Below, in pieces: positions 1,582-47,753 of a stretch of 64,000 nt of DNA. How positions within the stretch are numbered: the stretch's first letter is position 1; each line of letters starts with the position of its first letter. The translations under genes and the position numbers were made by a program. A model generated the notes under the pieces. It was not told where the DNA came from, ran no database searches, and saw only the letters and a program-made list of their open reading frames with translations. Source of the stretch: Candidatus Omnitrophota bacterium (lineage in GTDB: Bacteria; Omnitrophota; Gorgyraeia; Velamenicoccales; JABMQK01). The stretch covers positions 1,111,005 through 1,175,004 of the forward strand of contig JAQTSV010000001.1 in the NCBI GenBank assembly GCA_028711115.1, given 5' to 3'.

Positions 1582-1995
1582 TTAAACCTTACTTTTGGCA
1601 TTATTTTTCTTTACATTTCCGTATTTTTCTTCCCATGGGATAGCGATTCCCAAAGGATCTTTTAACGCGTCGCTATTAAAATCTTCACTAGAAATAGGCA
1701 AAGCAGAATAGATGGCCCGATTAACAATATATTCTCTTATCTTCTTATTGTTGGTTCCTATTTTATGCCTGAGGGAACAATACAGTAATTCATTTTCAAA
1801 ATCTCCCCTCAATTGCGCCTTTTTTCCGGCAGAAATCACTTGTTTGCTCTCCAGAGATACTCTTACTTTTTTCCCTTTACTATCGCTATCTAAAAATACA
1901 TATGCACGGTCAATAAATGCATAACAGGCATTTAATATGGCCTCCAGATTATAAATATCGCTATTTAAAACTATTTTGATAACGTTTTGACTCAT
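1582..1995 (-). CDS. Small hypothetical protein (137 aa) immediately upstream of the radical SAM/SPASM gene; possible accessory or substrate-related protein of that module.
   Basis: The 137-aa ORF has GGGAG about 10 nt upstream of its ATG. It sits in an operon-like position between the secreted Cys-rich protein and the radical SAM gene. No family recognised with certainty. Confidence 0.45.
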   Translation of the reverse strand: MSQNVIKIVLNSDIYNLEAILNACYAFIDRAYVFLDSDSKGKKVRVSLESKQVISAGKKAQLRGDFENELLYCSLRHKIGTNNKKIREYIVNRAIYSALPISSEDFNSDALKDPLGIAIPWEEKYGNVKKNNAKSKV

Positions 1996-2028
1996 TATAA
2001 AATTCTCCCTGGGATTCTACTGAATCTA

Positions 2029-3462: not shown

Positions 3463-3463
3463 C

Positions 3464-4723
3464 TTATTTAGTTAATCTGGCGGCTAAAATTGAATTTTTA
3501 ATTTTGTTTATGTTTACCTTCATTAACTTATTATTTAGATTAACATTATTTTTTGCTTCAGTCAATAGGTAATTTTGTGAATAACCACGCCAGAAACCAT
3601 TCTTTTTCTCTTCAAACAGGACTTGTAATTGGCGGTTTAAAAAACGCCTTTTAAACTTAAGGCCTAACTTATCGCTAAGCGCCTTTAGCAAGATAAATCT
3701 CTGCTTAAGAACCTGTTCAGGAATATTATTCTTGAAATTTACCAGCGGTGTGTTGTCTCTGGGGTCGAATGGAAAAATATGCACACGACTAGGCAAAACT
3801 TTTTTCAGGAAATCCAATGTATTTAAAAACCTTTTCTCATCTTCGTCGGGAAAACCAATCATAATATCTGTGGTGATAGCCATATTTTTTATGTTCTTTC
3901 TTAACTTTGCCGCGAGCTTTAGATAATCCTGCCTCCTGTCTTTCCTGTTCATAAGTTTTAAGATTTCATTGTCACCGCTTTGAAAAGGAATATGCAGGTG
4001 CGGGCAGAGTTTTTGAGAAGTTTTCATTTTTTTGATGAGCCTGTCGGTCACATCTTTTGCCTCAATGGAACTTAAACGTATGCGCAGAACGCCTTTTATC
4101 TTTTCAATCTCTCCGATTAAATCCGTTAAGTCTATCTTCTGCTCCAAATCCCTGCCGTAATCACCCAGACAAATTCCTGTCAAAACTATTTCTTTGTAAC
4201 CTTTATCGCTCAGTCTTTTTATTTCGTTGATAATCGAAACAGGATTCCTGCTTCTGGAACGCCCCCGCACATAAGGCACTTTGCAGAAACTGCAGAAATT
4301 ATTACAGCCGTCCTGAATCTTGACAAAAGCCCTGGTGCGGCCTTGGAAATCACTTATCTCTTGAATAGCGGAAACATTATCTTTTCCGTCGGGAAAAAGA
4401 AATTCTACAATTCTATTCTTATCGTCATTGTTTAAAATTATATCTGCGCTGCCAATTCTTTCAATATCATCTGCATTTGAATGCGCATAGCAACCGGTCA
4501 CTACAACTTTAGCCAAAGGGTTTTCTCTTTTTGCCACTCTCATCAAATATCGAGACTGCCTGTCAGCGCTGCTGGTAACTGTACATGTGTTAATAATATA
4601 GAAGTTGGCTTTCTGGCCATTACCTAATTCCTTAAGACCTTTCCGCCTTAGCTGTTCCCGAATCAGCTGCGAATCATACTGATTAACTTTACAACCTAAA
4701 GTGTAGATTTTGAATGTCTGCAT
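3464..4723 (-). CDS. MiaB-family radical SAM tRNA methylthiotransferase (MtaB/MiaB-like).
   Basis: N-terminal MTTase domain (KIYTLGCKVNQYDS...INTCTVT) followed by a radical SAM core (GCNNFCSFCKVPYVRG). 419 aa. Confidence 0.85.
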   Translation of the reverse strand: MQTFKIYTLGCKVNQYDSQLIREQLRRKGLKELGNGQKANFYIINTCTVTSSADRQSRYLMRVAKRENPLAKVVVTGCYAHSNADDIERIGSADIILNNDDKNRIVEFLFPDGKDNVSAIQEISDFQGRTRAFVKIQDGCNNFCSFCKVPYVRGRSRSRNPVSIINEIKRLSDKGYKEIVLTGICLGDYGRDLEQKIDLTDLIGEIEKIKGVLRIRLSSIEAKDVTDRLIKKMKTSQKLCPHLHIPFQSGDNEILKLMNRKDRRQDYLKLAAKLRKNIKNMAITTDIMIGFPDEDEKRFLNTLDFLKKVLPSRVHIFPFDPRDNTPLVNFKNNIPEQVLKQRFILLKALSDKLGLKFKRRFLNRQLQVLFEEKKNGFWRGYSQNYLLTEAKNNVNLNNKLMKVNINKIKNSILAARLTK

Positions 4724-4735
4724 TGTTAAAATAAC

Positions 4736-5467
4736 CTAACTAAAATATAATTTTATAAACCCTGCGGCGACTATTGCTGCGGTATCCACTTTTAAAACCG
4801 AATCGCCTAAACTAACAGAGATAAAACCTGCCTGCTGTGCCGAATCTATCTCTTCTTTGGAAAAATCCCCTTCTGGCCCGATGGCAACCAGGATATTCTT
4901 TGCAGGCTTCTTTTCTAAAACATCTTTGAGATTTTGTGTACTGCCTGCCAGATTCGGTATCACAGCCAAATCGAAATCTCCGTCGAGCTTTAATCTCATC
5001 AGCCCTTCAAAATTCAGGAAATCGATTTGCGGCAGGAATAAATTTCCGCTCTGTTTTAAACTGGACTCCGCAATCTTTTTAAACCGCACTAACTTGCGGG
5101 AATAATCTTTAAGATTTACTTCCGTGCGCTCAGTCTTAAGTAAAATTATTTTTTCTGTTCCGATTTCTGTAAGTTTTTCTACGATAAAATCTATTTTTGA
5201 TTTCTTGGGCACAGCGCAGGCTACGGTTAATCTCAAAGGTAACTCTTCTTTCTTGTATGTATGTCTTTCCAGAATGTTTAATTTTGCGCCATGTTTACCT
5301 AAATGGCTGATTTCACAGATAAGTTCTGTACCGTTACCATCTATGACAGTGACTTTATCTTGATTTTTCAGGCGCAGGACATCTTTTAAATGATGCAATT
5401 CGTCTTTGTCTAGAATATTTATCTGGTGAGAATTTATATGTTGTGGATTGCAGAAGAATCTGCGCAT
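4736..5467 (-). CDS. rsmE: 16S rRNA (uracil1498-N3)-methyltransferase RsmE.
   Basis: MRRFF N-terminus, 243 aa, PUA-like N-domain plus SPOUT C-domain pattern typical of RsmE. Confidence 0.8.
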   Translation of the reverse strand: MRRFFCNPQHINSHQINILDKDELHHLKDVLRLKNQDKVTVIDGNGTELICEISHLGKHGAKLNILERHTYKKEELPLRLTVACAVPKKSKIDFIVEKLTEIGTEKIILLKTERTEVNLKDYSRKLVRFKKIAESSLKQSGNLFLPQIDFLNFEGLMRLKLDGDFDLAVIPNLAGSTQNLKDVLEKKPAKNILVAIGPEGDFSKEEIDSAQQAGFISVSLGDSVLKVDTAAIVAAGFIKLYFS

Positions 5468-5476
5468 AAATTTAGT

Positions 5477-6982
5477 TTATCCCTCGGAGAAAACAAAAGC
5501 CTGAAATGTATAAATCTGGGTTTTGGAATCTTTATAGGCGTCTGGCGCAAGGCCTGCCTTCTGCCAGCAAAGCTGACTTAGAAAAGTCTCCAGATCCCAC
5601 TTTGTCTCGGTGGCCACCTGGGGCAAGAAAACCCCGCTGGAAAAACCTCTTTTTACGATTACGCCGTCTGTGCCCAATCTAATCTTTCGCCAGTCGTCGA
5701 TTAATTGCGGTTCAGTCAATACAGAAATCTCAATCTTAATGTGGCTTAATTCATCTTTGGTCACAGGGCCAAACCGGGGATCGCCGGTAGCTGATTCTAT
5801 GGCCATCTGGGAAATAACCTTATAAATCGGCTCTCTCGACGTAAAAGTGCCGATACAACCCCTCAAATCCCCGTCTTTGTGCAGTGTGACGAATGCGCCC
5901 CGCTGTAAATTTAATTGCGGATCTTCTTCATTAAAACTCGGGGTTTTGCCTGTAACAACATATTCAGTTATGGTCTGGCGCGCAATTTCTAATAATCTTT
6001 TTTTCTGAGTTTCGTTAAACATCTGCTCTTCTCCTTTTGAAACCGGACTATTTTTGCCAGAGTTATTTTTATCTGCTTCGGATAAATCGCTGCTCTCTTT
6101 AAAAAATATGATGCTGGCGTAACCCACGACTCCTGATTTATCGCCCGTGACATCTCCTGAATTAGCGTAATCCAGGGCCTGCGCTTTCAGCCCTAATTCT
6201 TTAGCATAATTTAATAAAACCGAAACCGGTGCCAAACCGCATGCTTCGCATTCTCTTTTTAAATTTGACTGCCAGAACCCAAAGGCATCCAGATTTTTCA
6301 TATAAGAAATCGCCTTTGCGTCCATTTCCTGCGCCTCTGAATAAGGATGATAATGAGATAAATCCGTACTCGCCACGAGCAAAACCTTCTTACCTTTAGT
6401 TATATCGACGAGAATTCTGGCGACTTTGGCATAATCGCTGTAATCTAACTGACCAAAAACCATTGGCACAATTTTAAAGCCGGCTAATGATTTCTGCAAA
6501 AATGGTAATTCCACTTCTACGGCGTGTTCTCTTTCAAATGCCTCGGGTATAAATTTGATTTTATCGCTTGAAGAAATCAGCGCCTTGGTTAATTCGCTGT
6601 CAACTTCAACATCGCCTAAAGGCGTACGGAAAAATCCTTCATCATAAACAGAAATGCCTTTTAAGGCATAGAAATGCGACGGCGCAAGAATAATTACCGT
6701 ATCAAAACTTCTGCCTTTTATGGCGTCAAAACTGTAGGCGGCAACCTGGCCGGAATATGCGTATCCTGCGTGCGGGGAAATTACAGCAAGAATATCTTTG
6801 TCTTTTACATCTTGATTCTGCCTGACATTGGCAAAGAAATTGTCAATTTGGCTGGAGAGCACATCTTTATCGGCAGGATAAAATTGTCCGCTGACATTAG
6901 GATATTTTATCTTACCTTCGGCAAAAATAATACCGCAGAATAAAACAAAACAGATAAAACCCGATAAAAATATCTTCTTCAT
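5477..6982 (-). CDS. Fusion of a Memo-like protein (AmmeMemoRadiSam system protein B family) and an AMMECR1 domain (protein A family), with an N-terminal signal peptide.
   Basis: Signal-like N-terminus MKKIFLSGFICFVLFCGIIFA. Memo motif VISPHAGYAYSG. C-terminal AMMECR1 motif LRGCIGTF. Confidence 0.75.
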   Translation of the reverse strand: MKKIFLSGFICFVLFCGIIFAEGKIKYPNVSGQFYPADKDVLSSQIDNFFANVRQNQDVKDKDILAVISPHAGYAYSGQVAAYSFDAIKGRSFDTVIILAPSHFYALKGISVYDEGFFRTPLGDVEVDSELTKALISSSDKIKFIPEAFEREHAVEVELPFLQKSLAGFKIVPMVFGQLDYSDYAKVARILVDITKGKKVLLVASTDLSHYHPYSEAQEMDAKAISYMKNLDAFGFWQSNLKRECEACGLAPVSVLLNYAKELGLKAQALDYANSGDVTGDKSGVVGYASIIFFKESSDLSEADKNNSGKNSPVSKGEEQMFNETQKKRLLEIARQTITEYVVTGKTPSFNEEDPQLNLQRGAFVTLHKDGDLRGCIGTFTSREPIYKVISQMAIESATGDPRFGPVTKDELSHIKIEISVLTEPQLIDDWRKIRLGTDGVIVKRGFSSGVFLPQVATETKWDLETFLSQLCWQKAGLAPDAYKDSKTQIYTFQAFVFSEG

Positions 6983-7173: not shown

Positions 7174-7758
7174 TTATCGTCCGGAGGTCATGCGGGAAAA
7201 AAATGTGGTGGTTAAATTCACAGCGGGGTTGTCAAACAAGGATTCAGTTTTCGTAGGGTCTTTTCTTGTCCGTATGGTAACAGTTAAAGCTGTATTATTA
7301 TATGCAGCCGGGGCAACAACATTAAAATAAGTAATACCGTTGGCTATTGTTTCATTACTTGAAGTAAAATTATCGGAAGAATAATAGATTGAGCCATATG
7401 TCCCTCCCGGCCATCTATAGGCATGCCATTGATCTGGCGCAGAAACAGTTCCGCTATTATCATAATCAACCCTAATTACTACCCTTTGGTTACTTTCCTG
7501 TATATAAAGGCTGTTATTATATAGGCCGCCGATTTGATTCTCGAAATCATTTCTAATTCGGTTTATTACCGGTATCAATTCACCCAATAATTTCGTCTGG
7601 GCTGTTGGTTTTGTCTGCATTCTGCGCATTGCCATCTCCAGAGTAATGCCTGTGAGCGCAACCACGCTAAATAACAAAATTGCTATCATAAGCTCCATAA
7701 GGGTAAATCCGGCCAAAAATCTATTATGCTTATACATTATTTCTTGTCTGTTGTGCAT
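7174..7758 (-). CDS. Minor pilin/pseudopilin with a prepilin-type N-terminal cleavage/methylation domain (PilW/GspJ-like).
   Basis: RFLAG|FTLMELMIAILLF class III signal with Glu at +5. Confidence 0.7.
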   Translation of the reverse strand: MHNRQEIMYKHNRFLAGFTLMELMIAILLFSVVALTGITLEMAMRRMQTKPTAQTKLLGELIPVINRIRNDFENQIGGLYNNSLYIQESNQRVVIRVDYDNSGTVSAPDQWHAYRWPGGTYGSIYYSSDNFTSSNETIANGITYFNVVAPAAYNNTALTVTIRTRKDPTKTESLFDNPAVNLTTTFFSRMTSGR

Positions 7759-7776: not shown

Positions 7777-8223
7777 TTATAGCGTAGGTTCGGTCCAATC
7801 TACTTCTACTTCGGCCTTACGATATTCGTAGCCGCCTCCGGGGTCTGTTATTCTATAACGCCACTTGCCGTTATATTTGGTGGCAAATTCGGTTGTACCA
7901 AAGGTGCTGTAAATATTCAAAAAATTATTTGCATAATCCATATCATACCAGGCACTCCATGCGCCATTAGCCGCTATCGGCGAAGTAGCACAATACCATT
8001 CATCTGCGCGTAAGTACGCCCTGAAATTCTCCAAAACAGTCTGTGCCACTTCATCAGCAAAATGCCTTCTCTGTGCACGCTGGATTATTTTGCTCGAAGA
8101 CAAAGTAATGCTGAACATCCCCGCGCCAATAAGTGCCAAAAGCACGGCGGAAACTATTATTTCTACTAATGTCAACCCTGCCTTCTGCTTTAATTTGTTA
8201 ATCGAATGCATCTTTCCTGACAA
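7777..8223 (-). CDS. Minor pilin/pseudopilin (PilV/GspI-like).
   Basis: KQKAG|LTLVEIIVSAVLLALIG prepilin-type N-terminus. Confidence 0.7.
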   Translation of the reverse strand: MSGKMHSINKLKQKAGLTLVEIIVSAVLLALIGAGMFSITLSSSKIIQRAQRRHFADEVAQTVLENFRAYLRADEWYCATSPIAANGAWSAWYDMDYANNFLNIYSTFGTTEFATKYNGKWRYRITDPGGGYEYRKAEVEVDWTEPTL

Positions 8224-8358: not shown

Positions 8359-8793
8359 TTAGGGGCAAGTGCCCGTACAGCTAGCACTAACGGCAGTATT
8401 AGTAATCTCCCAATAGCGATTATAGCCACCTCTATTTCTTGTAAGTCTCGCTGTAAAAGACGCTCCAGTAGTTGCACCTGTAATTGAATAAGTCCAGCTA
8501 TTATCGCTAACCAAATCCAATCTCAAATTAGTATTTATAGTATCGATTGCAGTAACAGCAGTTGTCGATTGGGGATAATATAAACCTGTCTCTAATCTAT
8601 AAGCCCGCTCAGCTGAACGGATAAGGCTGAGTATAGCCTGGGCCTGTTTGTCCATTGTTCTCTCTCGGGAGCGGACATATGTAGGCAAGGCAATACTTGC
8701 CAATATCCCCACAATAATCACTACCACTACTAATTCAATAAGCGTGACTGCGCGTCTTTTATCTTTATGAAACATATTTATTTTCTTGAACAT
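8359..8793 (-). CDS. Pilin-like protein (144 aa) with a C-terminal Cys pair; the small partner of cassette A.
   Basis: KRRA|VTLIELVVVVIIVGILA, a prepilin-like N-terminus with Ala rather than Gly at -1. C-terminal CTGTCP. Paralog of the ORF at 10094-10525. Confidence 0.7.
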   Translation of the reverse strand: MFKKINMFHKDKRRAVTLIELVVVVIIVGILASIALPTYVRSRERTMDKQAQAILSLIRSAERAYRLETGLYYPQSTTAVTAIDTINTNLRLDLVSDNSWTYSITGATTGASFTARLTRNRGGYNRYWEITNTAVSASCTGTCP

Positions 8794-8806: not shown

Positions 8807-10057
8807 CTACTTAGTTGTTTTTACGTCTGGTGGTGGATTTTTCCCGCCTCCCGGCTCTTTTCCGCCTGCCGAGCTACCTTTTAGTAATTCCCGTGGTTGC
8901 TTCAAATCATCTTGCAATCCCTTCATTAATTGTTCGAATCCTTGCTTTGGATCCATCTCTTGTTTACCTGATAGTATGTTATTTATTGTCTGTAAATCAC
9001 CTTGCAGAGTCTGTTGCATTGTTTTTATTTCATCTAAGGTCGTTCCGCTTTCTATTAACCCATCTAAAGTCACTACACCGCCTGCTGAACCACCTAATAC
9101 CATGTCTAGCGACTTTAGAAAATTTTGTATTTCCTGTGCCAAGTCCTGCAAAGCAACTACTTGGCCATCTGATACAGCCTTGTTATGCACAAGGATCCCC
9201 TCTGCAAAATAATTAGACGGTTTACCAACGCTCATGTTATAAACAAGGACTTTCTTCGGGATACTGACTTTGCTGGTTAAAGTTATCCAGCCGTCTAATG
9301 TAAAGAGTTTATCGCCGATATTCAAATCCTTGACTTTTATCCAGCCTCTTTGCGTATAGAAGGGGTGTTCTTGGGTGACATTGAGGGTTTTATTCAACGT
9401 ATAATATCCTTCGGCATCTTTGGAAAAGATCTTCTTAACGCTTACTTCTATTTTTTTCTTATTCTTTAGATCGTAACCCCATACCGTGTCTTTTGCTTTT
9501 AGTTTCGAGATAAGAATCTTTCCTTTTGGGGTATCAATCTTGGTGTTGCCTGTGAAACAGATAACGACACCACCAGTACCACCGCTGCCGCCGCTACCGC
9601 CACTTCCACCGCTACCACCTGAACCTAAGCTAGCCACCATAATCATACCTCCGGAAACTCCGGGTGGTATATTGCCTGCGCAGACCAACTCTCCGTTCTC
9701 TCTGATTCCAATAGTATATGCACCGCCAGACCTGACTGCCAGGGCGATAACTTCTGTATTGTCACCGTTGTTGGGTACGGGTGTGGTGGATACGGCAAAA
9801 TCAAAGAATCTGCCCTGGATGGGGATATTTGCATCAACCTGGGTTAAACAAGTAGAATAAATATCGTTCTCTAAGGCATAGCGCATCTCTGCTTCACGTA
9901 TAGCAGCTAACTTGTTTTTTGCCTCGGTTGTCCTTGATTTCTCCACCGCATTATTATATTTCGGCAAGGCCACAATAGTCAGAACACTGAGGATGATAAC
10001 AATGACTATCAATTCTATAAAAGTAAAACTTCTTTTGGGATTATTTCTTTTTGCCAT
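8807..10057 (-). CDS. Pilin-like fusion protein: prepilin-type N-terminal domain, a (GSG)n linker, a Hint (intein-like/BIL) domain and an ~120-aa Gln/Leu-rich C-terminal domain.
   Basis: The start is probably the second Met (MAKRNNPKRS|FTFIELIV), which has AAGGAGGA upstream; the track ORF begins 18 nt earlier. Hint blocks: CFTGNTKIDTPKG (A), TQEHPFYT (B), VLVYNMSV...SNYFAEGILVHN (F/G). Residue +1 after HN is Lys. Confidence 0.75.
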   Translation of the reverse strand: MAKRNNPKRSFTFIELIVIVIILSVLTIVALPKYNNAVEKSRTTEAKNKLAAIREAEMRYALENDIYSTCLTQVDANIPIQGRFFDFAVSTTPVPNNGDNTEVIALAVRSGGAYTIGIRENGELVCAGNIPPGVSGGMIMVASLGSGGSGGSGGSGGSGGTGGVVICFTGNTKIDTPKGKILISKLKAKDTVWGYDLKNKKKIEVSVKKIFSKDAEGYYTLNKTLNVTQEHPFYTQRGWIKVKDLNIGDKLFTLDGWITLTSKVSIPKKVLVYNMSVGKPSNYFAEGILVHNKAVSDGQVVALQDLAQEIQNFLKSLDMVLGGSAGGVVTLDGLIESGTTLDEIKTMQQTLQGDLQTINNILSGKQEMDPKQGFEQLMKGLQDDLKQPRELLKGSSAGGKEPGGGKNPPPDVKTTK

Positions 10058-10059
10058 AT
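9613..10059. repeat. Copy A of a ~447-bp near-identical direct repeat, covering the 5' part of the pilin-fusion gene including its start codon.
   Basis: Aligns base-for-base with 11161-11607 apart from ~4 substitutions (tagccacc/tggccacc, catacctcc/catgcctcc, cctgactgcc/cctggctgcc, ctggatgggg/ctgggtgggg). Confidence 0.85.
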
Positions 10060-10093
10060 GCCCATCCTCCTTCATTTATTCAAAAAACTAAAA

Positions 10094-10525
10094 TTAGGGA
10101 CAATTCCCAGCACAGGTAGCATTAATAGAGGTATCCGTAATACTCCAAGTACGGCTATAACCACCTTTGTCTCTTGTCCATGTAGCTTGAAAATGAAGGC
10201 TAGGCTGTCCTGAAGTACCTATACCCAAAATAGAATGAGTTGCCCAATTTCCATCATCAACCAAATCTAACCTTAGATTAGAATTTATGTTACTGAGGTA
10301 AGACTCCGTAGCCCCACCATTAGGATAATAGCCTCCCATTTCCGATTTATATACCCTTTCAGCTGCAAGGACAAAATTGAGTATAGCTATGGCCTGTTTA
10401 TCCATTGTCCTCTCTCGGGAACGCGTATATGTAGGCAAGGCAAGACCTGCTAATATTCCGACGACAACCACTACCACCACTAACTCAATAAGCGTTATTG
10501 CGTGCCTTCCATCTTTATAAAACAT
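10094..10525 (-). CDS. Pilin-like protein (143 aa); the small partner of cassette B.
   Basis: GRHA|ITLIELVVVVVVVGILAG prepilin-like N-terminus. C-terminal CAGNCP. Paralog of 8359-8793. Confidence 0.7.
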   Translation of the reverse strand: MFYKDGRHAITLIELVVVVVVVGILAGLALPTYTRSRERTMDKQAIAILNFVLAAERVYKSEMGGYYPNGGATESYLSNINSNLRLDLVDDGNWATHSILGIGTSGQPSLHFQATWTRDKGGYSRTWSITDTSINATCAGNCP

Positions 10526-10542
10526 ATTGCATTTTCGTGAAA

Positions 10543-11604
10543 TTACTTTTGTTCCTTTGGCGACTCGGGTGCTCCAGAGTCTTCAGGTTTTTCAGGATTC
10601 GAGTATCCCATTTTCTCTAAAAAATCTTCCCATTGCTTTTCTATCTCTTGATACTTTTTGTATAAATCATCTAAACAGCCCTGGTCCGAACAACCAAACA
10701 AAGTCTCTTTTATTTTTTCTAATTGATCTTGCAGTGTTTTTGCAATGCCTTCCGGATCTTCCCCCTTATAAAATTCCAGTTCGACATACATTTCATCTAA
10801 ATATTTTTGAAGTTCTTCGGGTTTGGTTGGTGGTTTCTCAGGCTGTTCAGTTTTTTCTTTGATCTTATCTAGTTGTTCTTGCAATTTTTCCACATCTTTT
10901 CCTTCATATTTTGACAACTCCATTTCGAATTGGTCTATTTTTGCTTGTACTTCTGATAAGCAAACCAAATCTCCTTTGCACTCATCAATCATTTTGCTTA
11001 TTTCATCTAATTGGCTCATCATCTTAACAAAAACATCATCCCATCCCATACTACCGCCGGTGCCACCGCTTCCACCACTGCCGCCACTGCCGCCGCTACC
11101 GCCACTGCCACCGCTGCCGCCGCTACCGCCGCTACCACCGCTACCACCACTGCCACCACTACCACCTGAACCTAAGCTGGCCACCATAATCATGCCTCCG
11201 GAAACTCCGGGTGGTATATTGCCTGCGCAGACCAACTCTCCGTTCTCTCTGATTCCAATAGTATATGCACCGCCAGACCTGGCTGCCAGGGCGATAACTT
11301 CTGTATTGTCACCGTTGTTGGGTACGGGTGTGGTGGATACGGCAAAATCAAAGAATCTGCCCTGGGTGGGGATATTTGCATCAACCTGGGTTAAACAAGT
11401 AGAATAAATATCGTTCTCTAAGGCATAGCGCATCTCTGCTTCACGTATAGCAGCTAACTTGTTTTTTGCCTCGGTTGTCCTTGATTTCTCCACCGCATTA
11501 TTATATTTCGGCAAGGCCACAATAGTCAGAACACTGAGGATGATAACAATGACTATCAATTCTATAAAAGTAAAACTTCTTTTGGGATTATTTCTTTTTG
11601 CCAT
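10543..11604 (-). CDS. Pilin-like fusion protein: the same N-terminal pilin domain as 8807-10057, a longer (GSG)n linker and an acidic coiled-coil-like C-terminal domain; no Hint domain.
   Basis: The first ~143 aa are almost identical to the cassette A fusion and are encoded by a near-identical ~447-bp DNA repeat. GGAGGAGGG lies upstream of the ATG. Confidence 0.7.
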   Translation of the reverse strand: MAKRNNPKRSFTFIELIVIVIILSVLTIVALPKYNNAVEKSRTTEAKNKLAAIREAEMRYALENDIYSTCLTQVDANIPTQGRFFDFAVSTTPVPNNGDNTEVIALAARSGGAYTIGIRENGELVCAGNIPPGVSGGMIMVASLGSGGSGGSGGSGGSGGSGGSGGSGGSGGSGGSGGSGGTGGSMGWDDVFVKMMSQLDEISKMIDECKGDLVCLSEVQAKIDQFEMELSKYEGKDVEKLQEQLDKIKEKTEQPEKPPTKPEELQKYLDEMYVELEFYKGEDPEGIAKTLQDQLEKIKETLFGCSDQGCLDDLYKKYQEIEKQWEDFLEKMGYSNPEKPEDSGAPESPKEQK

Positions 11605-11607
11605 ATA
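11161..11607. repeat. Copy B of the ~447-bp near-identical direct repeat.
   Basis: See copy A. Confidence 0.85.
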
Positions 11608-11696
11608 TCTGCCCTCCTCCGCTTATGTTTGTTGAAAATATTAGCAGATTTTTATTCTTTTAATATAATTTTAATATGATTCCGTTTTAACAACAT

Positions 11697-11742
11697 AACT
11701 CTCTCCCACCAGAGAACTTTTCTGATGAGAGAGAGTCTTATT
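11697..11742 (-). terminator. Hairpin (8-bp stem ACTCTCTC/GAGAGAGT) downstream of major pilin copy 1; possible terminator or attenuator.
   Basis: Inverted repeat aactctctc...gagagagtc with a ~23-nt loop, followed on the transcript by U-containing sequence. Confidence 0.3.
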
Positions 11743-11796
11743 ACTTACAAAAACAATACTTAAACAAACAACTCTGATGCAAAACTAACCTTAACT

Positions 11797-12192
11797 TTAC
11801 TCAGGACAACTCGCAGTAGGAGTACAATTTAGAGTCCCATCTTCAGTGATGTACATTGTATAATTGGCATAAGTACCGCCTGCATCCACTGTATTTCTTT
11901 TTACCCAGGCAATGCTGTTGACAGAAGTGCCAACCGACGGCGTAGAGAAATACCTTGCAGTGGAAAACTCTGAGCCTGTATCCAGATTACCTAGCGTACT
12001 TGCATAGGAATTATACTGGGCGTAATACCTGACCTGAGCAGCACGTAAAGTACCCAGTATTGTTTTTCCCTCTGCCATTCTTGCTCTTTCGCTTACTTTT
12101 ATGTACCTAGGAAGAGCTACTGACGCCAATATACCAATTACGATGATAACAATGATTAACTCGAGCAGTGTAAAACCTTTCTTGCGGAACAT
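11797..12192 (-). CDS. Type IV major pilin / GspG-like pseudopilin (copy 1).
   Basis: MFRKKG|FTLLELIIVIIVIGILA, a canonical class III signal. C-terminal disulfide loop CTPTASCPE. Strong sigma70-like promoter and a 3' hairpin. Confidence 0.8.
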   Translation of the reverse strand: MFRKKGFTLLELIIVIIVIGILASVALPRYIKVSERARMAEGKTILGTLRAAQVRYYAQYNSYASTLGNLDTGSEFSTARYFSTPSVGTSVNSIAWVKRNTVDAGGTYANYTMYITEDGTLNCTPTASCPE

Positions 12193-12274
12193 CTTTTCCC
12201 CCTTTCGCTTCTTTATTGACTTTTTATTTTATTTTATTATTTCCTTTTTCCTCTCACTCTAATTTATTTTCCCA

Positions 12275-12283
12275 CCCCCCCCC
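12275..12283. repeat. Homopolymeric C9 (G9 on the coding strand) tract in the leader of major pilin copy 1.
   Basis: cccaCCCCCCCCCtctataaa read directly from the sequence. Confidence 0.9.
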
Positions 12284-12322
12284 TCTATAAACAATATTAT
12301 ATTTATTCTTGCTATTTTTTCT

Positions 12323-12351
12323 ATTATAACTCTTTCTTTCAGCAAAATCAA
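12323..12351 (-). promoter_or_regulatory. Sigma70-like promoter for major pilin copy 1: -35 TTGATT, 17-nt spacer, perfect -10 TATAAT.
   Basis: Minus-strand sequence TTGATTttgctgaaagaaagagtTATAAT, about 120 nt upstream of the pilin ATG. A poly-G tract lies in the intervening leader. Confidence 0.45.
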
Positions 12352-12384
12352 ACAATATAAATTACATATACAGAAACATCTTAA

Positions 12385-12780
12385 TTACTCAGGACAACTC
12401 GCAGTAGGAGTACAATTTAGAGTCCCGGTCTCAGTGATGTACATTGTATAATTGGCATAAGTACCGCCTGCATCCACTGTATTTCTTTTTACCCAGGCAA
12501 TGCTGTTGACAGAAGTGCCGACTCCTGGCGTAGAGAAATACCTTGCAGTGGAAAACTCTGAGCCTGTATCCAGCTTATTTAGGTCAGTTGTATAGGAATT
12601 ATACTGGGCATAATACCTGACCTGAGCAGCACGTAAAGTACCCAGTATTGTTTTTCCCTCTGCCATTCTTGCTCTTTCGCTTACTTTTATGTACCTAGGA
12701 AGAGCTACTGACGCCAATATACCAATTACGATGATAACAATGATTAACTCGAGCAGTGTAAAACCTTTCTTGCGGAACAT
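12385..12780 (-). CDS. Type IV major pilin (copy 2), a near-identical tandem paralog of copy 1.
   Basis: Same sequence apart from a few substitutions (ASTLGNL vs TTDLNKL, SVGTSV vs GVGTSV, EDGTL vs ETGTL). The true start is probably the second Met (MFRKKGF), because AAGGGAGGGGAG directly precedes it. Confidence 0.8.
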   Translation of the reverse strand: MFRKKGFTLLELIIVIIVIGILASVALPRYIKVSERARMAEGKTILGTLRAAQVRYYAQYNSYTTDLNKLDTGSEFSTARYFSTPGVGTSVNSIAWVKRNTVDAGGTYANYTMYITETGTLNCTPTASCPE

Positions 12781-12894
12781 CTCCCCTCCCTTCATTTGTT
12801 CTATTGGTTTTTATTTTATTTTCTTACTTTCTAACTTAGATTCCTACTATAATTATAACATTTTATTTGCATTAAATCCATACTTTACAATAAG

Positions 12895-14148
12895 TTAACG
12901 ACCCGATGCAGTGGCTAAACTGAATATCGGTAAAAATATGGAAATGACCATACTCCCTATTATTACGCCCATAAACAAAATCATTACTGGTTCAAATATA
13001 GAAGTCAGCCTTGCTACAAAAGCACTCAAATAATCCTGGTAGTATTTTGCAATTCTCTTAAACATACCGGAAAGTTCTCCTATCTCCTCGCCAGTCGAAA
13101 TCATCTGTATTACCATGGGAGGGAAAAAACCTGTCTTTTCTAACGGTATGGAGAACGACTTTCCTTCACGTACATTAATTTTGATGTTGCCGATTATCTC
13201 CCGCATTATCTTATTTGGCTGGCTGCGTTCAGAAATATCCAAAGCATAAATAATAGGCACGCCACTTTCGATAAGAATAGACATCGTAGTGGAAAAACTT
13301 TCTATCATCATAAAACGGAAGAAATTACCAATAACCGGAAGGCCTATTTGAATCCTCTCTATATAACTCCGCGTGCTGTCTGTCTTCATTGAATTCCTGA
13401 TTAAAGAAACAATGCCTATAATAATCAGCACTATTAACAAAAATCTTTTTCTTAAGGTATTACTTATGGCAATGAGAATCTTGGTAGGCATAGGTAACTC
13501 CACATTCATAGAAGTAAGAATGCTGGTAAAGGTGGGGACTATTCTTATTACAAAGAACATCACTGCGCCAATCGCCACAACAAAAAGAATGCAGGGATAT
13601 ATTAACGCAGAAACGATCTTTGTTTTAAATGCCTGTCTGTCTTCTAAATAATCGGCCAGATGCCCCAAGACCATAGGTAAGTTACCGCTGGCTTCTCCGG
13701 TTTCTATCAAATAAAGCCAAAGTTCGGAAAATATGCTTTTATGTTTGGCCAAAGAATCACGGAAAGTCCGGCCTGATTCCATATCTTTTGTAATCTCGGT
13801 AACTGCACTATGCAATTTGTGCGACTCGATCTGTCTTCCGATAACATCCAGGGATTTCATTAAACTTACACCTGCGCCTAAAAGCATGGCTAGCTGACGT
13901 GCAAAAATAACCAGATCTCCGGAATTAGCACCTTCATGCTTAAAACTTTTGACCTTCCCTTTACCAAAAGCAAGACCTTTTTTCTTTTGTTCTTCTACAA
14001 CGAAGGATATATCGTATTGAACAATTGAAGTAATAACTAAACCTTTTCTCTGAAGGATAGCTACGGCTTCATCTTGGTTCGCAGCCTCTAAGAGACCGGT
14101 GTCTTTTATTCCTTCTTTTGTACGACCAATATAGGAAAATTTCGGCAT
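12895..14148 (-). CDS. pilC: Type IV pilus/T2SS platform protein, PilC/GspF family.
   Basis: 417 aa, two GspF repeats, three TM helices. Confidence 0.85.
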   Translation of the reverse strand: MPKFSYIGRTKEGIKDTGLLEAANQDEAVAILQRKGLVITSIVQYDISFVVEEQKKKGLAFGKGKVKSFKHEGANSGDLVIFARQLAMLLGAGVSLMKSLDVIGRQIESHKLHSAVTEITKDMESGRTFRDSLAKHKSIFSELWLYLIETGEASGNLPMVLGHLADYLEDRQAFKTKIVSALIYPCILFVVAIGAVMFFVIRIVPTFTSILTSMNVELPMPTKILIAISNTLRKRFLLIVLIIIGIVSLIRNSMKTDSTRSYIERIQIGLPVIGNFFRFMMIESFSTTMSILIESGVPIIYALDISERSQPNKIMREIIGNIKINVREGKSFSIPLEKTGFFPPMVIQMISTGEEIGELSGMFKRIAKYYQDYLSAFVARLTSIFEPVMILFMGVIIGSMVISIFLPIFSLATASGR

Positions 14149-14184
14149 GGCTATTTTTTATTTTAGTACATTTATAACACTATG

Positions 14185-15885
14185 TCAATCTACTAACGTA
14201 GCGCTTAGTGCTTCTTCTAAACTGGTTATGCCCTGTTTTACCGCAGATAATGCGCTTTCAGTTAAAGTCCGCATTCCGTTGTTACGGGCAATTTCTTTTA
14301 TTTTTTGAGAATTTGCCTTCTCTACAATTAAATCTCTTAGTGCATCGTTCAATAACATAACTTCTGCCACACATATCCTGCCTTTGTATCCGACGTGAGC
14401 ACATTTATCGCAGCCCTTGGCCTTATAGATTAAATCCTGGCCTAAATCTAACCTTTGTCTTTCTTCCTGGGAAGGCTCATATGGCTCTTTACAATCGGGG
14501 CATAATTTTCTAACCAATCTCTGGGCTACAATTAAAATTAAAGATGGCATTAAAAGATACGATTCAATACCTATATCAATAAGCCGGGTAATACATGATG
14601 GGGCATCATTTGTATGAAGCGTACTTAATACCAAGTGGCCAGTAAGGGCAGAACGTACACAAATCTGAGCGGTATCTAAATCTCGGACTTCTCCCACCAT
14701 CATTATATCCGGGTCCTGCCTTAAAAATGACCTCAAGGCAGAAGCAAATGTTAAGCCAATCTCTGGTTTAATCTGCACCTGGTTAATCCCTTCCAGACGG
14801 TATTCTACAGGATCCTCAACAGTCACTATGTTTTCTTTGGGAGACTTAAGTTCGTTTAATATCGCATACAAAGTAGTAGTCTTACCGCTGCCCGTAGGAC
14901 CGGTAAAAAAAATTAAGCCATAAGGACTGTGTATGCCTTTTCTTATATCCTCCAATTGCTTCTTGTCAAAACCGAGTACGGCCAAGTCTAATTTTGCCTT
15001 ATCTTTATCTAAAATTCTTAAAACAACTTTTTCGCCATAAATGGTGGGAATAACAGAAACACGAAAATCAATTGCGCGTTCCTCTAATTTTACAGAAAAT
15101 CCCCCGTCCTGAGGCAGGCGTTTTTCTGCTATGTCGAGCTTGGAAAGAATTTTTACGCGAGAGACTATGGGCAGATGCAGATGTTTTGCCGGCGGAGGTA
15201 TTTCATGCAAAACTCCGTCGATGCGGTACCTTAAGCTTATGCGGGCTTTAAAAGGTTCAATGTGTATATCGGAGGCCCGCTCATCTATCGCCTGCTTTAA
15301 AATAAGGTCCACTAATTTTACAACCGGCGCCTCTTCTGCACGGGCTATTAACCTATCAATGCTTAATTCTTCCTCGCTAGAAATCTCTTCCACCAAAGCA
15401 TCGCCGAGATAAGATTCTTTTACGGCCTGCTTTAACAAATCTCTCTTCCCATAGAATTGATCTATGGCCTTCTCGATGTCAGACTTGGTGGCTACAACCA
15501 AATTTACTTCACAGCCAGTCATCTTTCTTATGTTATCAATAAGAATTACATCCAGCGGATCATAGATTGCGCAGGTAATCGAACTCATGTTTCTTGACAG
15601 GGGAATTACTAGATTTTTTAGCGCGAACTCTTTGGGGATAAGTATATCGAGTTGGCTATCTATTTGAGGCTTTAGCAGATCAGAACCTAAAGACACATAG
15701 GGTATTTTCAGCTGTTTTCCTAAGGCCGCAACTATATCTTGTTCTGTAACAAAATTTAATTTAACAAGTATTTCACCTATGCGGCTGCCTTCTTTTTGCT
15801 GTGTCTTTATGGCCTTATCTAACTGCTCCTGTGTGATGACTCCTTCTTTAAGAAGAATCTCGCCCAGCCTAAGATATGTTGCCAT
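14185..15885 (-). CDS. pilB: Type IV pilus assembly ATPase, PilB/GspE family.
   Basis: N-terminal GSPII_E_N-like repeats, Walker A GPTGSGKTTT, tetracysteine motif CPDC...CDKC. Confidence 0.9.
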   Translation of the reverse strand: MATYLRLGEILLKEGVITQEQLDKAIKTQQKEGSRIGEILVKLNFVTEQDIVAALGKQLKIPYVSLGSDLLKPQIDSQLDILIPKEFALKNLVIPLSRNMSSITCAIYDPLDVILIDNIRKMTGCEVNLVVATKSDIEKAIDQFYGKRDLLKQAVKESYLGDALVEEISSEEELSIDRLIARAEEAPVVKLVDLILKQAIDERASDIHIEPFKARISLRYRIDGVLHEIPPPAKHLHLPIVSRVKILSKLDIAEKRLPQDGGFSVKLEERAIDFRVSVIPTIYGEKVVLRILDKDKAKLDLAVLGFDKKQLEDIRKGIHSPYGLIFFTGPTGSGKTTTLYAILNELKSPKENIVTVEDPVEYRLEGINQVQIKPEIGLTFASALRSFLRQDPDIMMVGEVRDLDTAQICVRSALTGHLVLSTLHTNDAPSCITRLIDIGIESYLLMPSLILIVAQRLVRKLCPDCKEPYEPSQEERQRLDLGQDLIYKAKGCDKCAHVGYKGRICVAEVMLLNDALRDLIVEKANSQKIKEIARNNGMRTLTESALSAVKQGITSLEEALSATLVD

Positions 15886-29473: not shown

Positions 29474-29508
29474 CGTGAACTTTGGGCTGACTTTTGTTTA
29501 AACTCTAA

Positions 29509-30804: not shown

Positions 30805-30861
30805 AAGTAATTTTTCTTACTGATAGAACAATTTGAACGAAACTGGCCAGCGCCGTTTAAA

Positions 30862-31941: not shown

Positions 31942-31968
31942 AACGTTTTCCTTTTACCTAACAAATTA

Positions 31969-34013: not shown

Positions 34014-34040
34014 TTAAAAATTGTCCTTATAAACTTTTAA

Positions 34041-39436: not shown

Positions 39437-39472
39437 ATTAACTAAACTCCATAATTATTGTACAAATTTATG

Positions 39473-42813: not shown

Positions 42814-42849
42814 GCGATAATTCTCCTCTTCCTTGATAGAATATAGTTC

Positions 42850-43854: not shown

Positions 43855-43882
43855 ATTCAGCTAAATTTTAATTCTGCCAATC

Positions 43883-45466: not shown

Positions 45467-45621
45467 TTCCGAGAAACCTCCCTTATTTATAAATTAAAAA
45501 CAATATTGTATCTTGCGGTTCTTCAGCGGTGTATATCTGCTTCCTTGCTTTATTCTATTTCAATTATACAGGTTTTTATAGATGTCTCTGCCAAGAGATG
45601 GGTTTGCAGTAAAATAGTGGA

Positions 45622-46644: not shown

Positions 46645-46715
46645 AAAGTTTAAAAATATATTATTTTTACAATACCGGTATAAATTAAGTAGACTTTTAG
46701 GAATAAAAGTTCTTG

Positions 46716-47747: not shown

Positions 47748-47753
47748 CTTTTT

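What the first reader, a model, noticed from the sequence alone, without database searches (positions are those of the whole stretch)
9613..11607. Near-identical ~447-bp direct repeat spanning the 5' ends of the two fusion genes
Positions 9613-10059 and 11161-11607 differ at only ~4 nucleotides. The flanking genes (small pilins, C-terminal domains) are far more diverged. The whole-locus AT-rich intergenic sequence is not conserved either. Such selective homogenisation implies recent duplication or ongoing gene conversion. The 1.5-kb-spaced direct repeats also provide a substrate for deletion or duplication by homologous recombination, i.e. switching which C-terminal module is expressed.
Basis: seen in the sequence. 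Interest (0 to 1): 0.55.

Follow-up and report, generated by a model that had tools for sequence, protein, structure and literature searches.

The report
Shared carrier in two modular pilins
Two neighbouring pilus-subunit genes of an uncultured Omnitrophota bacterium carry an almost identical "carrier" half, most likely kept alike by gene conversion, joined by a flexible linker to different C-terminal modules, one of which begins with a self-cleaving intein-like domain that is rare in pilins.

Summary
The repeat is real. 9613-10059 matches 11160-11606 with 4 mismatches. At 98% identity it runs 483 bp (9577-10059 / 11124-11606).

All genes lie on the minus strand in a type IVa pilus operon of an Omnitrophota MAG. 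The repeat starts 2 nt upstream of the ATG of two pilin genes and ends in their Gly/Ser linkers. It encodes one pilin module plus the linker start.
- Gene A (8807-10057): pilin, 19-aa linker, BIL/PT-HINT domain, about 124-aa helical tail.
- Gene B (10543-11604): pilin, 40-aa linker, 169-aa helical domain with no known relative.
- Each is followed by a small pilin.

Synonymous divergence is 0.02 in the shared module, 0.80 in the small-pilin pair and 0.07 in the tandem major pilins. Velamenicoccus relatives have one unfused pilin plus small pilin at this position. This implies an old two-gene duplication with later 5' homogenisation, most likely gene conversion.

Independent k=31 contigs support the tandem junction, so an assembly artefact is unlikely. 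"Switching" is not supported: both genes are complete, each with its own ribosome-binding site.

The more interesting feature is the pilin-linker-BIL-cargo architecture, which is rare and unstudied. No diverged strain was available for a cross-strain test of concerted evolution.

The parts
9613..10059 (-). Repeat copy A. It covers the 5' end of gene A: 2 nt upstream of the ATG, the pilin module and the first linker codons. At lower identity it extends to 9577.
11160..11606 (-). Repeat copy B, the 5' end of gene B. It has 4 mismatches to copy A and extends to 11124 at lower identity.
8807..10057 (-). Gene A, a 416-aa modular pilin. Its start is the ATG at 10057, preceded by GGAGGA. The upstream ATG at 10075 lies before the ribosome-binding site.
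9626..10057 (-). Gene A pilin module (aa 1-144). It has a class III signal peptide (KRS|FTFIE, Glu5), a long alpha-1 helix (aa 13-64), a 4-stranded sheet and two Cys residues.
9569..9625 (-). Gene A linker, GS(GGS)4GGTGG (19 aa). It is encoded by a 9-nt tandem repeat and is predicted to be disordered.
9182..9559 (-). Gene A BIL / PT-HINT domain (Cys167 to Asn292). It has Cys1, a TxxH block and a terminal His-Asn, followed by Lys at +1.
8810..9181 (-). Gene A C-terminal tail (aa 293-416): three long and one short predicted helices plus a disordered Gly/Pro/Lys end. It matches no family.
10543..11604 (-). Gene B, a 353-aa modular pilin.
11053..11172 (-). Gene B linker, GS(GGS)11GGTGG (40 aa), encoded by 12 copies of a 9-nt unit.
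10546..11052 (-). Gene B cargo (aa 185-353): an acidic domain of six predicted helices with an internal repeat (ELxxYxGxDxE..LQxQLxKIKE) and a disordered tail. It has no Pfam or PDB relative.
10094..10525 (-). Small pilin B, 143 aa. It is the second gene of duplicated unit B.
8359..8793 (-). Small pilin A, 144 aa (138 aa from an alternative start). It is the second gene of duplicated unit A.
11697..11737 (-). Hairpin with a 17-bp stem, between the major pilin genes and gene B. It is probably an attenuator that sets minor-pilin expression levels.
11797..12780 (-). Two tandem major-pilin genes (11797-12192 and 12385-12780). They show the same pattern of homogenisation limited to the coding sequence.

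Best explanation
The repeat is the shared carrier half of two paralogous modular minor-pilin genes in the type IVa pilus operon of an Omnitrophota bacterium.

Origin (inferred). An ancestral two-gene unit, a pilin followed by a small pilin, is still present as one unfused copy in Velamenicoccus. In this lineage the pilin acquired a Gly/Ser linker and a C-terminal module, and the unit was tandemly duplicated long ago (small-pilin dS about 0.8). Intra-operon gene conversion has since kept the first roughly 450-480 nt of the two fusion genes nearly identical. The converted stretch runs from the ATG to the start of the linker, which is nearly the whole extent of alignable homology. The cargo modules and the partner pilins continued to diverge.

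Function (inferred). Both genes lie in one operon in the same orientation, and each has its own ribosome-binding site and start codon, so they are probably co-transcribed. The cell can therefore load one identical pilin module, with identical contacts to the filament and assembly machine, with either of two different C-terminal modules on a flexible tether. These modules probably sit at or near the pilus tip. [quoted passage not shown] It should form a thioester at the end of the linker and cleave at its own C-terminus. That would release the helical tail, splice it onto the linker, or transfer the pilin to another group.

Shown: the repeat, the domain architecture, the dS contrast, the synteny with relatives and the read-graph support for the tandem arrangement.

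Inferred: gene conversion as the mechanism, co-expression, tip location and autoprocessing.
For: Repeat boundaries:
- Identity runs from 2 nt upstream of the ATG to the linker.

Divergence:
- dS is 0.020 in the module, 0.80 in the small-pilin pair and 0.072 in the major-pilin pair.
- The small pilins are each other's closest relatives: 59% to each other against 35-40% to the Velamenicoccus orthologue.

Synteny:
- Relatives have pilin X, small pilin, minor148 and minor194 in the same order, without a linker or cargo. The whole two-gene unit was therefore duplicated within this lineage.

Older homology beyond the identical tract:
- The ribosome-binding site region is similar but carries indels (GGAGGA-GGGCA).
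- The linker ends with the same peptide, SGGTGG, but differs at 3 of the 4 final codons at synonymous sites.
- The cargo tails are weakly similar: Smith-Waterman z = 3.8, and 7 of 2000 shuffles scored as high.

A second case in the same operon:
- In the major-pilin pair, identity is limited to the coding sequence, the differences cluster in patches and the flanks cannot be aligned.

Pilin identity:
- The N_methyl motif and ComP_DUS score near their thresholds.
- The best PDB hit is PilA 8tj2, E = 5e-6.
- The AlphaFold model has a pilin fold with pLDDT about 90.
- The operon also encodes PilM/N, PilO, a secretin, a PilB-type ATPase and PilC.

BIL identity:
- PF07591 scores 46.5 bits against a gathering threshold of 27.7.
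- PDB 2LWY, a bacterial intein-like domain, matches with E = 2e-5.
- The top Foldseek hits are BIL2 (6Y75) and 2LWY, the latter with TM 0.87.
- Cys1, TxxH and the terminal HN are conserved.

Assembly:
Against: - Every independent assembly found is the same strain (100% identity). The classical test for concerted evolution asks whether the paralogous modules co-vary between strains or species, and it could not be run.
- The identity reaches almost to the very edge of alignable homology at the 5' end. A single recent event explains that more easily than repeated conversion does.
- Only 4 differences exist, so their clustering in the 3' 207 nt is weak evidence of tract structure (p about 0.05).
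- The Gly/Ser repeat evolves by slippage, so the old-looking divergence at its 3' end is not a reliable clock.
- Homology between the cargo tails is only marginally significant.
- Expression, pilus incorporation and BIL activity are all untested.
- The N_methyl Pfam score (20.0) is just under its threshold (21.2).
Confidence: 0.6

Rival explanations
1. The identity comes from one recent module-shuffling event, not from ongoing conversion. A single recent recombination copied the segment from the ATG to the linker of one fusion gene onto the other. Alternatively, an unequal exchange between two strain alleles shared the 5' half but carried different cargo plus small pilin. The Gly/Ser-coding repeat served as the 3' crossover site. 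On this view the identity simply reflects the young age of that one event.
For: - The 3' boundary lies in a 9-nt tandem repeat that offers many registers for recombination.
- The 5' boundary is very sharp, 2 nt before the ATG.
- There are only 4 differences, and 240 nt are perfectly identical.
- Loci with a conserved 5' half, a variable 3' half and a linked downstream gene are typical of allelic cassette systems such as class 1 MafB.
Against: - The neighbouring major-pilin pair shows the same homogenisation limited to the coding sequence, with patchy differences. That suggests a recurrent process in this operon.
- Mechanistically, a one-off homologous replacement is itself a gene-conversion event, so this rival differs mainly in frequency.
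- No alternative alleles or orphan cassettes were seen in the window or in the assemblies I inspected.
Confidence: 0.27
2. The locus is a polymorphic-toxin-like or cassette-exchange system. On this view the pilin plus linker is a trafficking domain and PT-HINT is the releasing peptidase. The C-terminal modules are exchangeable effectors delivered by the pilus of a predatory bacterium. The repeats, and possibly the conserved 3' end of the Hint domain, are the recombination anchors for swapping effectors.
For: - The architecture is a conserved N-terminal region, a PT-HINT domain at the junction and a variable C-terminal region. This is exactly the architecture of class 1 MafB and of many polymorphic toxins.
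- Omnitrophota of this clade are inferred predators or parasites, and Velamenicoccus archaeovorus expresses type IVa pili.
- A Logan contig breaks precisely at the 31-mer that encodes YFAEGILVHN, the Hint terminus. That hints at a second sequence sharing this stretch.
Against: - Neither C-terminal module matches any toxin family in Pfam, and gene B's model has no significant PDB structural match.
- The downstream genes are pilins, not immunity proteins.
- There are no orphan cassettes in the 64 kb.
- Two other pilin-Hint proteins (P0021, P0171) have only 4-8 residues after the Hint domain, so there is no effector to release.
- The polymorphic-toxin survey lists no pilin trafficking domain.
Confidence: 0.08
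3. The repeat is an assembly artefact: two strain variants of a single fusion gene were stitched in tandem, or a repeat was collapsed or expanded.
For: - The source is a short-read MAG.
- The repeat (about 450-480 bp) is longer than a typical read.
- Contigs of the closest relatives end in the pilin region.
Against: - The unique junction from the small pilin B stop, through 36 nt, to the ATG of gene A lies inside one k=31 unitig. That unitig was seen in 3 samples and ends exactly k-1 nt inside each repeat copy.
- The sequence is identical in the MAG contigs I could compare directly, and accession order indicates the same gene order in a third MAG.
- The copies differ by 4 SNPs and by 63 nt of linker.
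Confidence: 0.04

Closest known systems
Modular type IV pilins (Streptococcus sanguinis PilB-vWA and PilC-lectin; Raynaud et al. 2021, PMC8179133)
   Same: An N-terminal pilin module with a class III signal peptide is joined by a linker to a C-terminal module that is not specific to pilus biology. These pilins are encoded among the minor pilins of a type IV pilus operon. The survey's Dataset S1 lists the architecture IPR012902-PF07591 once.
   Different: Here two paralogues share one nearly identical carrier but bear different modules. The linker is a long (GGS)n tether of 19 or 40 aa rather than a short loop. One module is a self-processing BIL/PT-HINT domain plus a tail. The modules have no recognisable binding domain. 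Nothing is characterised experimentally.
Class 1 MafB toxins of pathogenic Neisseria with an A-type BIL domain at the constant/variable junction (Jamet et al. 2015, PMC4287609)
   Same: There is a conserved N-terminal region, an optional A-type BIL domain exactly at the junction and a variable C-terminal region. Paralogues with and without the BIL domain coexist. Recombination exchanges the C-termini.
   Different: The MafB N-terminus is DUF1020 with a Sec signal, not a pilin. MafB C-termini are proven toxins followed by immunity genes and orphan CT cassettes. Here the C-termini are helical domains of unknown function followed by pilins, and no cassettes were seen.
Neisseria pilE/pilS antigenic variation by gene conversion
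   Same: There is non-reciprocal homologous exchange between pilin paralogues. The N-terminal part is constant and the C-terminal part is variable.
   Different: In Neisseria the donors are promoterless, 5'-truncated silent cassettes, and conversion diversifies the variable 3' part. Here both genes are complete and the homogenised part is the 5' constant module. No G4-type initiator was looked for.
A-type bacterial intein-like domains (Clostridium thermocellum BIL, PDB 2LWY; Tetrahymena BUBL BIL2, PDB 6Y75)
   Same: These are the best sequence and structural matches. They share Cys1, TxxH, a terminal His-Asn and the absence of Cys/Ser/Thr at +1. Known activities are N- and C-terminal autocleavage, splicing by aminolysis and, for BIL2, isopeptide conjugation of the N-extein to lysines.
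   Different: The host protein is a pilin, so the N-extein is a filament subunit on a flexible tether. The activity of this domain is untested.
Concerted evolution of tandem pilin paralogues
   Same: The tandem major pilins in this same operon show near-identity limited to the coding sequence, and their flanks have diverged. Tandem pairs of related major pilins are also described in S. sanguinis (PilE1/PilE2) and Legionella (PilA1/PilA2) (I read only the titles and abstracts).
   Different: In the fusion genes only the 5' module is homogenised. The 3' half of the same ORF is unrelated at the nucleotide level.

Membership tests
Type IV pilin / type 4 filament subunit | A class III signal peptide: a short basic leader, a cleavage site, Phe/Met at +1, Glu at +5 and a hydrophobic alpha-1N segment of about 20 residues. 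| tested here: met
   The sequence reads MAKRNNPKRS|FTFIELIVIVIILSVLTIVALP. Pfam N_methyl scores 20.0 bits, just under its gathering threshold of 21.2. Residue -1 is Ser rather than the usual Gly.
Type IV pilin / type 4 filament subunit | The pilin fold: a long N-terminal helix packed on an antiparallel beta-sheet. | tested here: met
   The AlphaFold models have a helix at aa 13-64 and four strands at aa 85-128, with pLDDT about 90. phmmer against the PDB gives PilA 8tj2 at E = 4.9e-6. The representative search found 401 pilin-sized homologues at E <= 1e-10.
Type IV pilin / type 4 filament subunit | The gene is encoded together with the assembly machinery. | tested here: met
   The same operon encodes PilM/N, PilO, a secretin, a PilB-type ATPase, PilC, two major pilins and minor pilins. 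A prepilin peptidase was not found in the part of the window I examined.
Modular pilin (sensu Raynaud et al. 2021) | A pilin module followed by an additional domain that is not specific to pilus biology. | tested here: met
   Gene A carries PF07591 after the pilin module. Gene B carries a confidently modelled domain of six predicted helices (pLDDT 82-92) after the pilin module, but that domain has no database signature.
A-type BIL / PT-HINT (Hint superfamily) | A match to the family profile above the curated threshold, together with the Hint fold. | tested here: met
   PF07591 scores 46.5 bits against a threshold of 27.7. PDB 2LWY matches at E = 2e-5. Foldseek gives 6Y75 at E = 1e-11 and 2LWY with TM 0.87. 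The domain's pLDDT is about 95.
A-type BIL / PT-HINT (Hint superfamily) | The catalytic residues: Cys/Ser at position 1, a TxxH block and a C-terminal His-Asn, with no Cys/Ser/Thr nucleophile at +1. | tested here: met
   The domain has C167, the block VTQEHP and VHN292 followed by K293. These positions are conserved in the alignment with P0021, P0159 and P0001. P0171 ends in DN.
A-type BIL / PT-HINT (Hint superfamily) | Autoproteolytic or splicing activity. | not testable with these tools
   This needs expression of the protein and analysis by mass spectrometry or SDS-PAGE.
Polymorphic toxin system | A C-terminal domain that belongs to a toxin family. | tested here: not met
   No Pfam family scores above noise for either C-terminal module. 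Gene B's model has no significant PDB structural match. The significant hits for gene A's model are to its Hint domain.
Polymorphic toxin system | A cognate immunity gene immediately downstream, and orphan C-terminal cassettes. | tested here: not met
   The downstream genes are pilins with N_methyl motifs. There is no further copy of any module in the 64-kb window.
pilE/pilS-type antigenic variation | One expressed locus plus promoterless, 5'-truncated silent donor cassettes. | tested here: not met
   Both copies are full-length ORFs with a ribosome-binding site and an ATG. The identical part is the 5' constant region.
Concerted evolution by gene conversion | A segment with far lower synonymous divergence than the rest of the duplicated unit. 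| tested here: met
   dS is 0.020 against 0.80. The unit duplication is inferred from synteny with Velamenicoccus.
Concerted evolution by gene conversion | Paralogues cluster by genome rather than by orthologue when related genomes are compared. | not testable with these tools
   All other assemblies are the same strain. The scans with the pilin module found no close relative carrying the fusion genes, and the PilC-anchored loci either lack them or are cut off in the pilin region.

The most novel reading that the evidence does not exclude
The pilus of a predatory or parasitic nanobacterium may use an intein-like domain as chemistry at the filament tip. On this reading the BIL domain converts the end of a pilin's flexible tether into a thioester. 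The thioester is then resolved in one of two ways. Either it releases the helical cargo outside the cell, making the cargo a self-cleaving, pilus-delivered effector. Or aminolysis links the pilin covalently to a lysine or amine on a target or on the cargo, as in the BUBL/BIL2 isopeptide reaction; the Lys at +1 is conserved in this Hint subfamily. The near-identical carrier and the (GGS)n-coding repeat would then form a plug-and-play scaffold on which cargo modules are exchanged by recombination. That would be a pilin-based counterpart of polymorphic toxin loci.
Probability: 0.15. Interest if true: 0.8.

Novelty: new variant of a known kind. Interest (0 to 1): 0.5.

Why it matters
By itself the repeat is a clean but ordinary case of partial concerted evolution between tandem paralogues. 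Its value is that it marks out a functional unit.

The unit is a pilin carrier plus a flexible tether, kept constant while the attached modules diverge. This fits the "modular pilin" idea, in which pili gain functions by grafting domains onto a pilin, and suggests the carrier and its modules evolve as separable parts. It also places a self-processing intein-like domain exactly at the graft point.

Pilin-Hint fusions appear once in the 2021 InterPro survey of modular pilins. I found only two more, with searches of limited sensitivity. I found no paper that studies them.

Type IVa pili are thought to matter for host or prey contact in Omnitrophota. A pilin whose C-terminus can be cleaved, spliced or transferred would therefore be a new way for a pilus to deliver or anchor something. 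The hypothesis can be tested directly with recombinant protein.

Tried and rejected
- Full-length protein A as a query for the search for homologous proteins. The Gly/Ser linker swamped the word index, and the search returned only two Hint proteins. One search was wasted.
- Hint domain plus tail of protein A as a query. It returned one hit (P0153), so the tail is effectively an orphan.
- Genome-collection scan with the pilin module. It found nothing.
- Metagenome scan with the pilin module. It found one distant pilin only. No diverged strain is available, so a comparative test of conversion is impossible.
- PilC-anchored scan. It identified the phylum and gave the synteny, but the three closest loci are cut off in or just after the pilin region, and L005-L007 (V. 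archaeovorus, its near relative and another Omnitrophota MAG) lack the fusions.
- A second MAG (L011) that I hoped was a different strain. It is 100% identical.
- Function of the cargo. Pfam at E <= 5, PDB sequence search and Foldseek on both models gave nothing significant for either helical module.
- Switching / silent-cassette model. Rejected because both ORFs are complete.
- Purifying selection alone as the cause of the identity. Rejected because synonymous sites are identical too.
- Canonical intein splicing. Rejected because the +1 residue is Lys.
- Literature. No paper in the held library links Hint or intein-like domains with pilins, beyond the supplementary table of Raynaud et al..


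Full report
**1. Observation**

A base-by-base comparison shows that window 9613-10059 is identical to 11160-11606 except at four positions (A-copy 9632, 9647, 9735, 9819). The true offset is 1547. BLASTN extends the match to 483 bp at 97.9% (9577-10059 vs 11124-11606), and there is no third copy in the 64-kb window. The repeat finder independently reports the 1547-nt spacing. It also finds a 9-nt tandem array at the 3' end of each copy, a 94%-identical pair of 300 nt at 11797/12385, and a 78% pair at 8573/10323.

**2. Anatomy**

All genes here are on the minus strand. In the direction of transcription the order is as follows:
- PilM/N, PilO and a T2SSB-like gene
- secretin (15887-17380)
- PilB-type ATPase (14185-15885)
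- PilC (12895-14148)
- two major-type pilins (12385-12780 and 11797-12192)
- a hairpin with a 17-bp stem (11697-11737; dG -29 kcal/mol, z = -7.6)
- gene B (10543-11604)
- small pilin B (10094-10525)
- gene A (8807-10057)
- small pilin A (8359-8793)
- two further minor pilins (7777-8223 and 7174-7758)

The repeat begins 2 nt upstream of the ATG of genes A and B and ends in their linkers. It therefore encodes aa 1 to about 148: a type IV pilin module (leader MAKRNNPKRS, then FTFIE with Glu5) plus the start of a Gly/Ser linker.

The two genes have these parts:
- Protein A continues with GS(GGS)4GGTGG and then a Hint domain running from Cys167 to Asn292. PF07591 (PT-HINT) scores 46.5 bits against a gathering threshold of 27.7. 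A tail of 124 aa follows.
- Protein B continues with GS(GGS)11GGTGG and then a 169-aa acidic domain.

The AlphaFold models agree with this layout:
- The pilin fold has pLDDT about 90.
- The linker is disordered (pLDDT below 50).
- The Hint domain has pLDDT about 95.
- The A tail has three long helices and one short one (pLDDT 62-85).
- The B domain has six helices (pLDDT 82-92).

**3. Source and reality of the arrangement**

The window comes from contig JAQUPK010000001.1 of the MAG GCA_028716625.1. NCBI labels its proteins Candidatus Omnitrophota. PilC relatives at 57-74% identity are Omnitrophota, including Ca. Velamenicoccus archaeovorus LiM.

The same locus is 100% identical over 18.8 kb in GCA_028714715.1. 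Consecutive protein accessions indicate the same gene order in a third MAG.

More telling are the single-run k=31 Logan contigs. L016 was seen in 3 samples and covers window 11224-10030. It runs from exactly 30 nt beyond the copy-B SNP at 11194, through linker B, cargo B, small pilin B and the unique 36-nt junction, to exactly 30 nt inside copy A. This is the signature of a true two-copy repeat. It shows that the junction between small pilin B and gene A exists in the reads. An assembly artefact is therefore unlikely. Minority deletion variants cannot be excluded.

**4. How the identity arose**

Nei-Gojobori estimates:

| Pair | dS | Identity |
|---|---|---|
| Shared pilin module | 0.020 (2 synonymous, 2 non-synonymous: I80T, V108A) | 99% aa |
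| Small pilins | 0.80 | 59% aa |
| Major pilins | 0.072 | 95% aa |

Purifying selection cannot hold synonymous sites identical. The module must therefore have a common ancestor about 40 times younger than that of the neighbouring gene pair.

Synteny indicates that the whole two-gene unit was duplicated. In V. archaeovorus and its relatives the corresponding position holds one unfused pilin, which is the best match of the module at 31% identity. It is followed by the orthologue of the small pilins (35-40% identity) and by the orthologues of the two last minor pilins. The two small pilins are closer to each other than to that orthologue, so they arose by duplication within this lineage.

Traces of older homology flank the identical tract:
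- The ribosome-binding site region is similar but carries indels.
- Both linkers end in SGGTGG, but 3 of the 4 final codons differ at synonymous sites.
- The two tails are weakly similar. The Smith-Waterman z-score is 3.8, and 7 of 2000 shuffles scored as high. The tails share a motif that is repeated inside B.

The major-pilin pair in the same operon shows the same picture. Identity begins at the stop codon and ends 3 nt before the ATG, the differences fall in three patches, and the flanks cannot be aligned.

Taken together, this favours recurrent gene conversion between tandem paralogues, with tracts confined to the region that is still homologous. A single recent replacement that used the (GGS)n-coding repeat as one crossover site is the main rival. 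It differs mostly in the frequency of the event. No diverged strain was found, so the cross-genome test of concerted evolution could not be run.

**5. The "switching" idea**

Both genes are full-length, each has its own GGAGG ribosome-binding site and ATG, and both lie in one operon. Neither is a silent cassette. Recombination between the direct repeats would delete or amplify cargo B plus small pilin B. It would not toggle expression. I therefore read the pair as two co-transcribed minor pilins that share one carrier. They sit downstream of a strong hairpin that probably lowers their level relative to the major pilins. That last point is an inference.

**6. The Hint domain**

- Its best PDB sequence match is the Clostridium thermocellum bacterial intein-like domain 2LWY (E = 2e-5).
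- Its best structural matches are Tetrahymena BIL2 (6Y75, E = 1e-11) and 2LWY (TM 0.87).
- Cys1, the TxxH block and the terminal His-Asn are present. The +1 residue is Lys, as it is in five of the six related Hint proteins examined; P0171 is the exception.

By these criteria it is an A-type BIL / PT-HINT domain. Such domains are known to cleave at either end and to splice by aminolysis without a +1 nucleophile (review PMC7765530). In BIL2 they conjugate the N-extein to lysines through an isopeptide bond (PMC8616854). In class 1 MafB toxins of Neisseria they sit exactly between a conserved N-terminal region and a variable C-terminus (PMC4287609).

Here the N-extein is a pilin on a flexible tether. 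I found two other pilin-PT-HINT proteins:
- P0021 has a pilin module 43% identical to this one and only 4 residues after the terminal HN.
- P0171 has 8 residues after its DN. Its gene lies alone among housekeeping genes.

The 2021 survey of modular pilins lists the architecture once. Those two proteins have almost no C-extein. The conserved chemistry is therefore more likely to act at the pilin-Hint junction than to serve only to release a payload.

The closest Hint relative, P0159, sits inside a protein with tail-fibre-like repeats.

**7. The cargo**

Neither C-terminal module matches any Pfam family. Gene B's model has no significant structural match in the PDB (best E = 1.4). The significant structural matches for gene A's model are all to its Hint domain. 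The modules do not look like known toxins, and the downstream genes are pilins rather than immunity genes. The polymorphic-toxin reading therefore fails two of its defining features, and the main survey of those systems does not mention pilins. It remains a low-probability but interesting possibility, given the predatory or parasitic lifestyle proposed for this clade and the reported expression of type IVa pili by V. archaeovorus (PMC10066038).

**8. An unexplained detail**

The 28-kb Logan contig L012 was seen in 2 samples. It starts at window 9212. Its first 31-mer encodes YFAEGILVHN, preceded by the last base of the Asn codon before it, and it ends exactly on the terminal Asn codon of the Hint domain. 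A graph branch at that point implies that another sequence in the sample shares at least 30 nt of the Hint 3' end. It could be another BIL gene, an alternative sequence after HN, or a population variant. It is not in the window and cannot be resolved without the reads.

**9. Verdict**

The repeat is the conserved carrier of a duplicated modular-pilin unit and was most likely maintained by gene conversion. As a recombination phenomenon it is ordinary. The architecture it marks out is a rare, unstudied variant of modular pilins: pilin, (GGS)n linker, BIL domain and cargo, next to a BIL-less paralogue. It is worth a biochemical test.

Noticed in passing
window 11697-11737 (- strand): There is a perfect 17-bp-stem hairpin (dG -29.2 kcal/mol, z = -7.6 against shuffles) in the 190-nt gap between the second major pilin gene and fusion gene B. 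It lacks a clean T-run. It is probably an attenuator, terminator or mRNA-stabilising element that sets the ratio of major to minor pilins.
   Followed up: partly
window 11797-12192 and 12385-12780: Two tandem major-pilin genes are 95% identical. Identity starts at the stop codon and ends 3 nt before the ATG. The differences cluster in three patches (11839-42, 11932-38, 11986-12003), and the flanks cannot be aligned. This is a second case of homogenisation limited to the coding sequence in the same operon.
   Followed up: partly
L012 position 1 = window 9212: A Logan k=31 contig seen in 2 samples breaks so that its first 31-mer encodes YFAEGILVHN and ends exactly on the terminal Asn codon of the BIL domain. 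This suggests that another sequence in the sample shares the Hint 3' end. It could be another BIL gene, an alternative cargo or a variant.
   Followed up: partly
L006 (Ca. Velamenicoccus archaeovorus LiM) 11360-15137; L005, L007: Relatives keep the same pilus operon, but with one unfused pilin plus small pilin and a radical-SAM gene inserted after the major pilin. They have no Gly/Ser linker and no cargo. The modular extension is therefore specific to this lineage.
   Followed up: yes
L003 10269-11827: The contig of a relative (PilC 69% identical) ends in two identical copies of the major pilin gene separated by a 3' fragment of pilC. The contigs of two other close relatives (L002, L004) end just after pilC or the first pilin. 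This suggests that repeats in the pilin region break assemblies in this clade.
   Followed up: no
L014 7649-8997: The closest Hint relative (P0159, 46% identical) lies inside a protein with a signal peptide and tail-fibre-like repeats (VGIGxxxPxxxLDV), followed by a Peptidase_S74-like chaperone domain. There are apparent frame changes at both Hint borders.
   Followed up: no
L013 8001-8894; L010 137-1141: Two other pilin-PT-HINT fusions have only 8 residues (P0171) or 4 residues (P0021) after the Hint domain. P0171 is a lone gene among aminoacyl-tRNA synthetase and RecO genes, not in a pilus operon.
   Followed up: partly
gene A aa 293 (window 9179-9181) and homologues: The residue after the Hint terminal His-Asn is Lys in A, P0021, P0159, P0153, P0001 and P0002. 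The best structural neighbour, BIL2, forms Lys isopeptide bonds.
   Followed up: no
window 1582-6982: Downstream of the pilus operon lie a Memo-AMMECR1 fusion (5477-6982), radical-SAM genes and an HxsD-family gene (1582-1995). These are parts of the AmmeMemoRadiSam and His-Xaa-Ser type systems.
   Followed up: no
window about 28000-48000: This is a low-GC stretch (31% against about 40%) encoding glycosyltransferase, aminotransferase, acetyltransferase and polysaccharide deacetylase genes. It looks like a surface-polysaccharide island.
   Followed up: no
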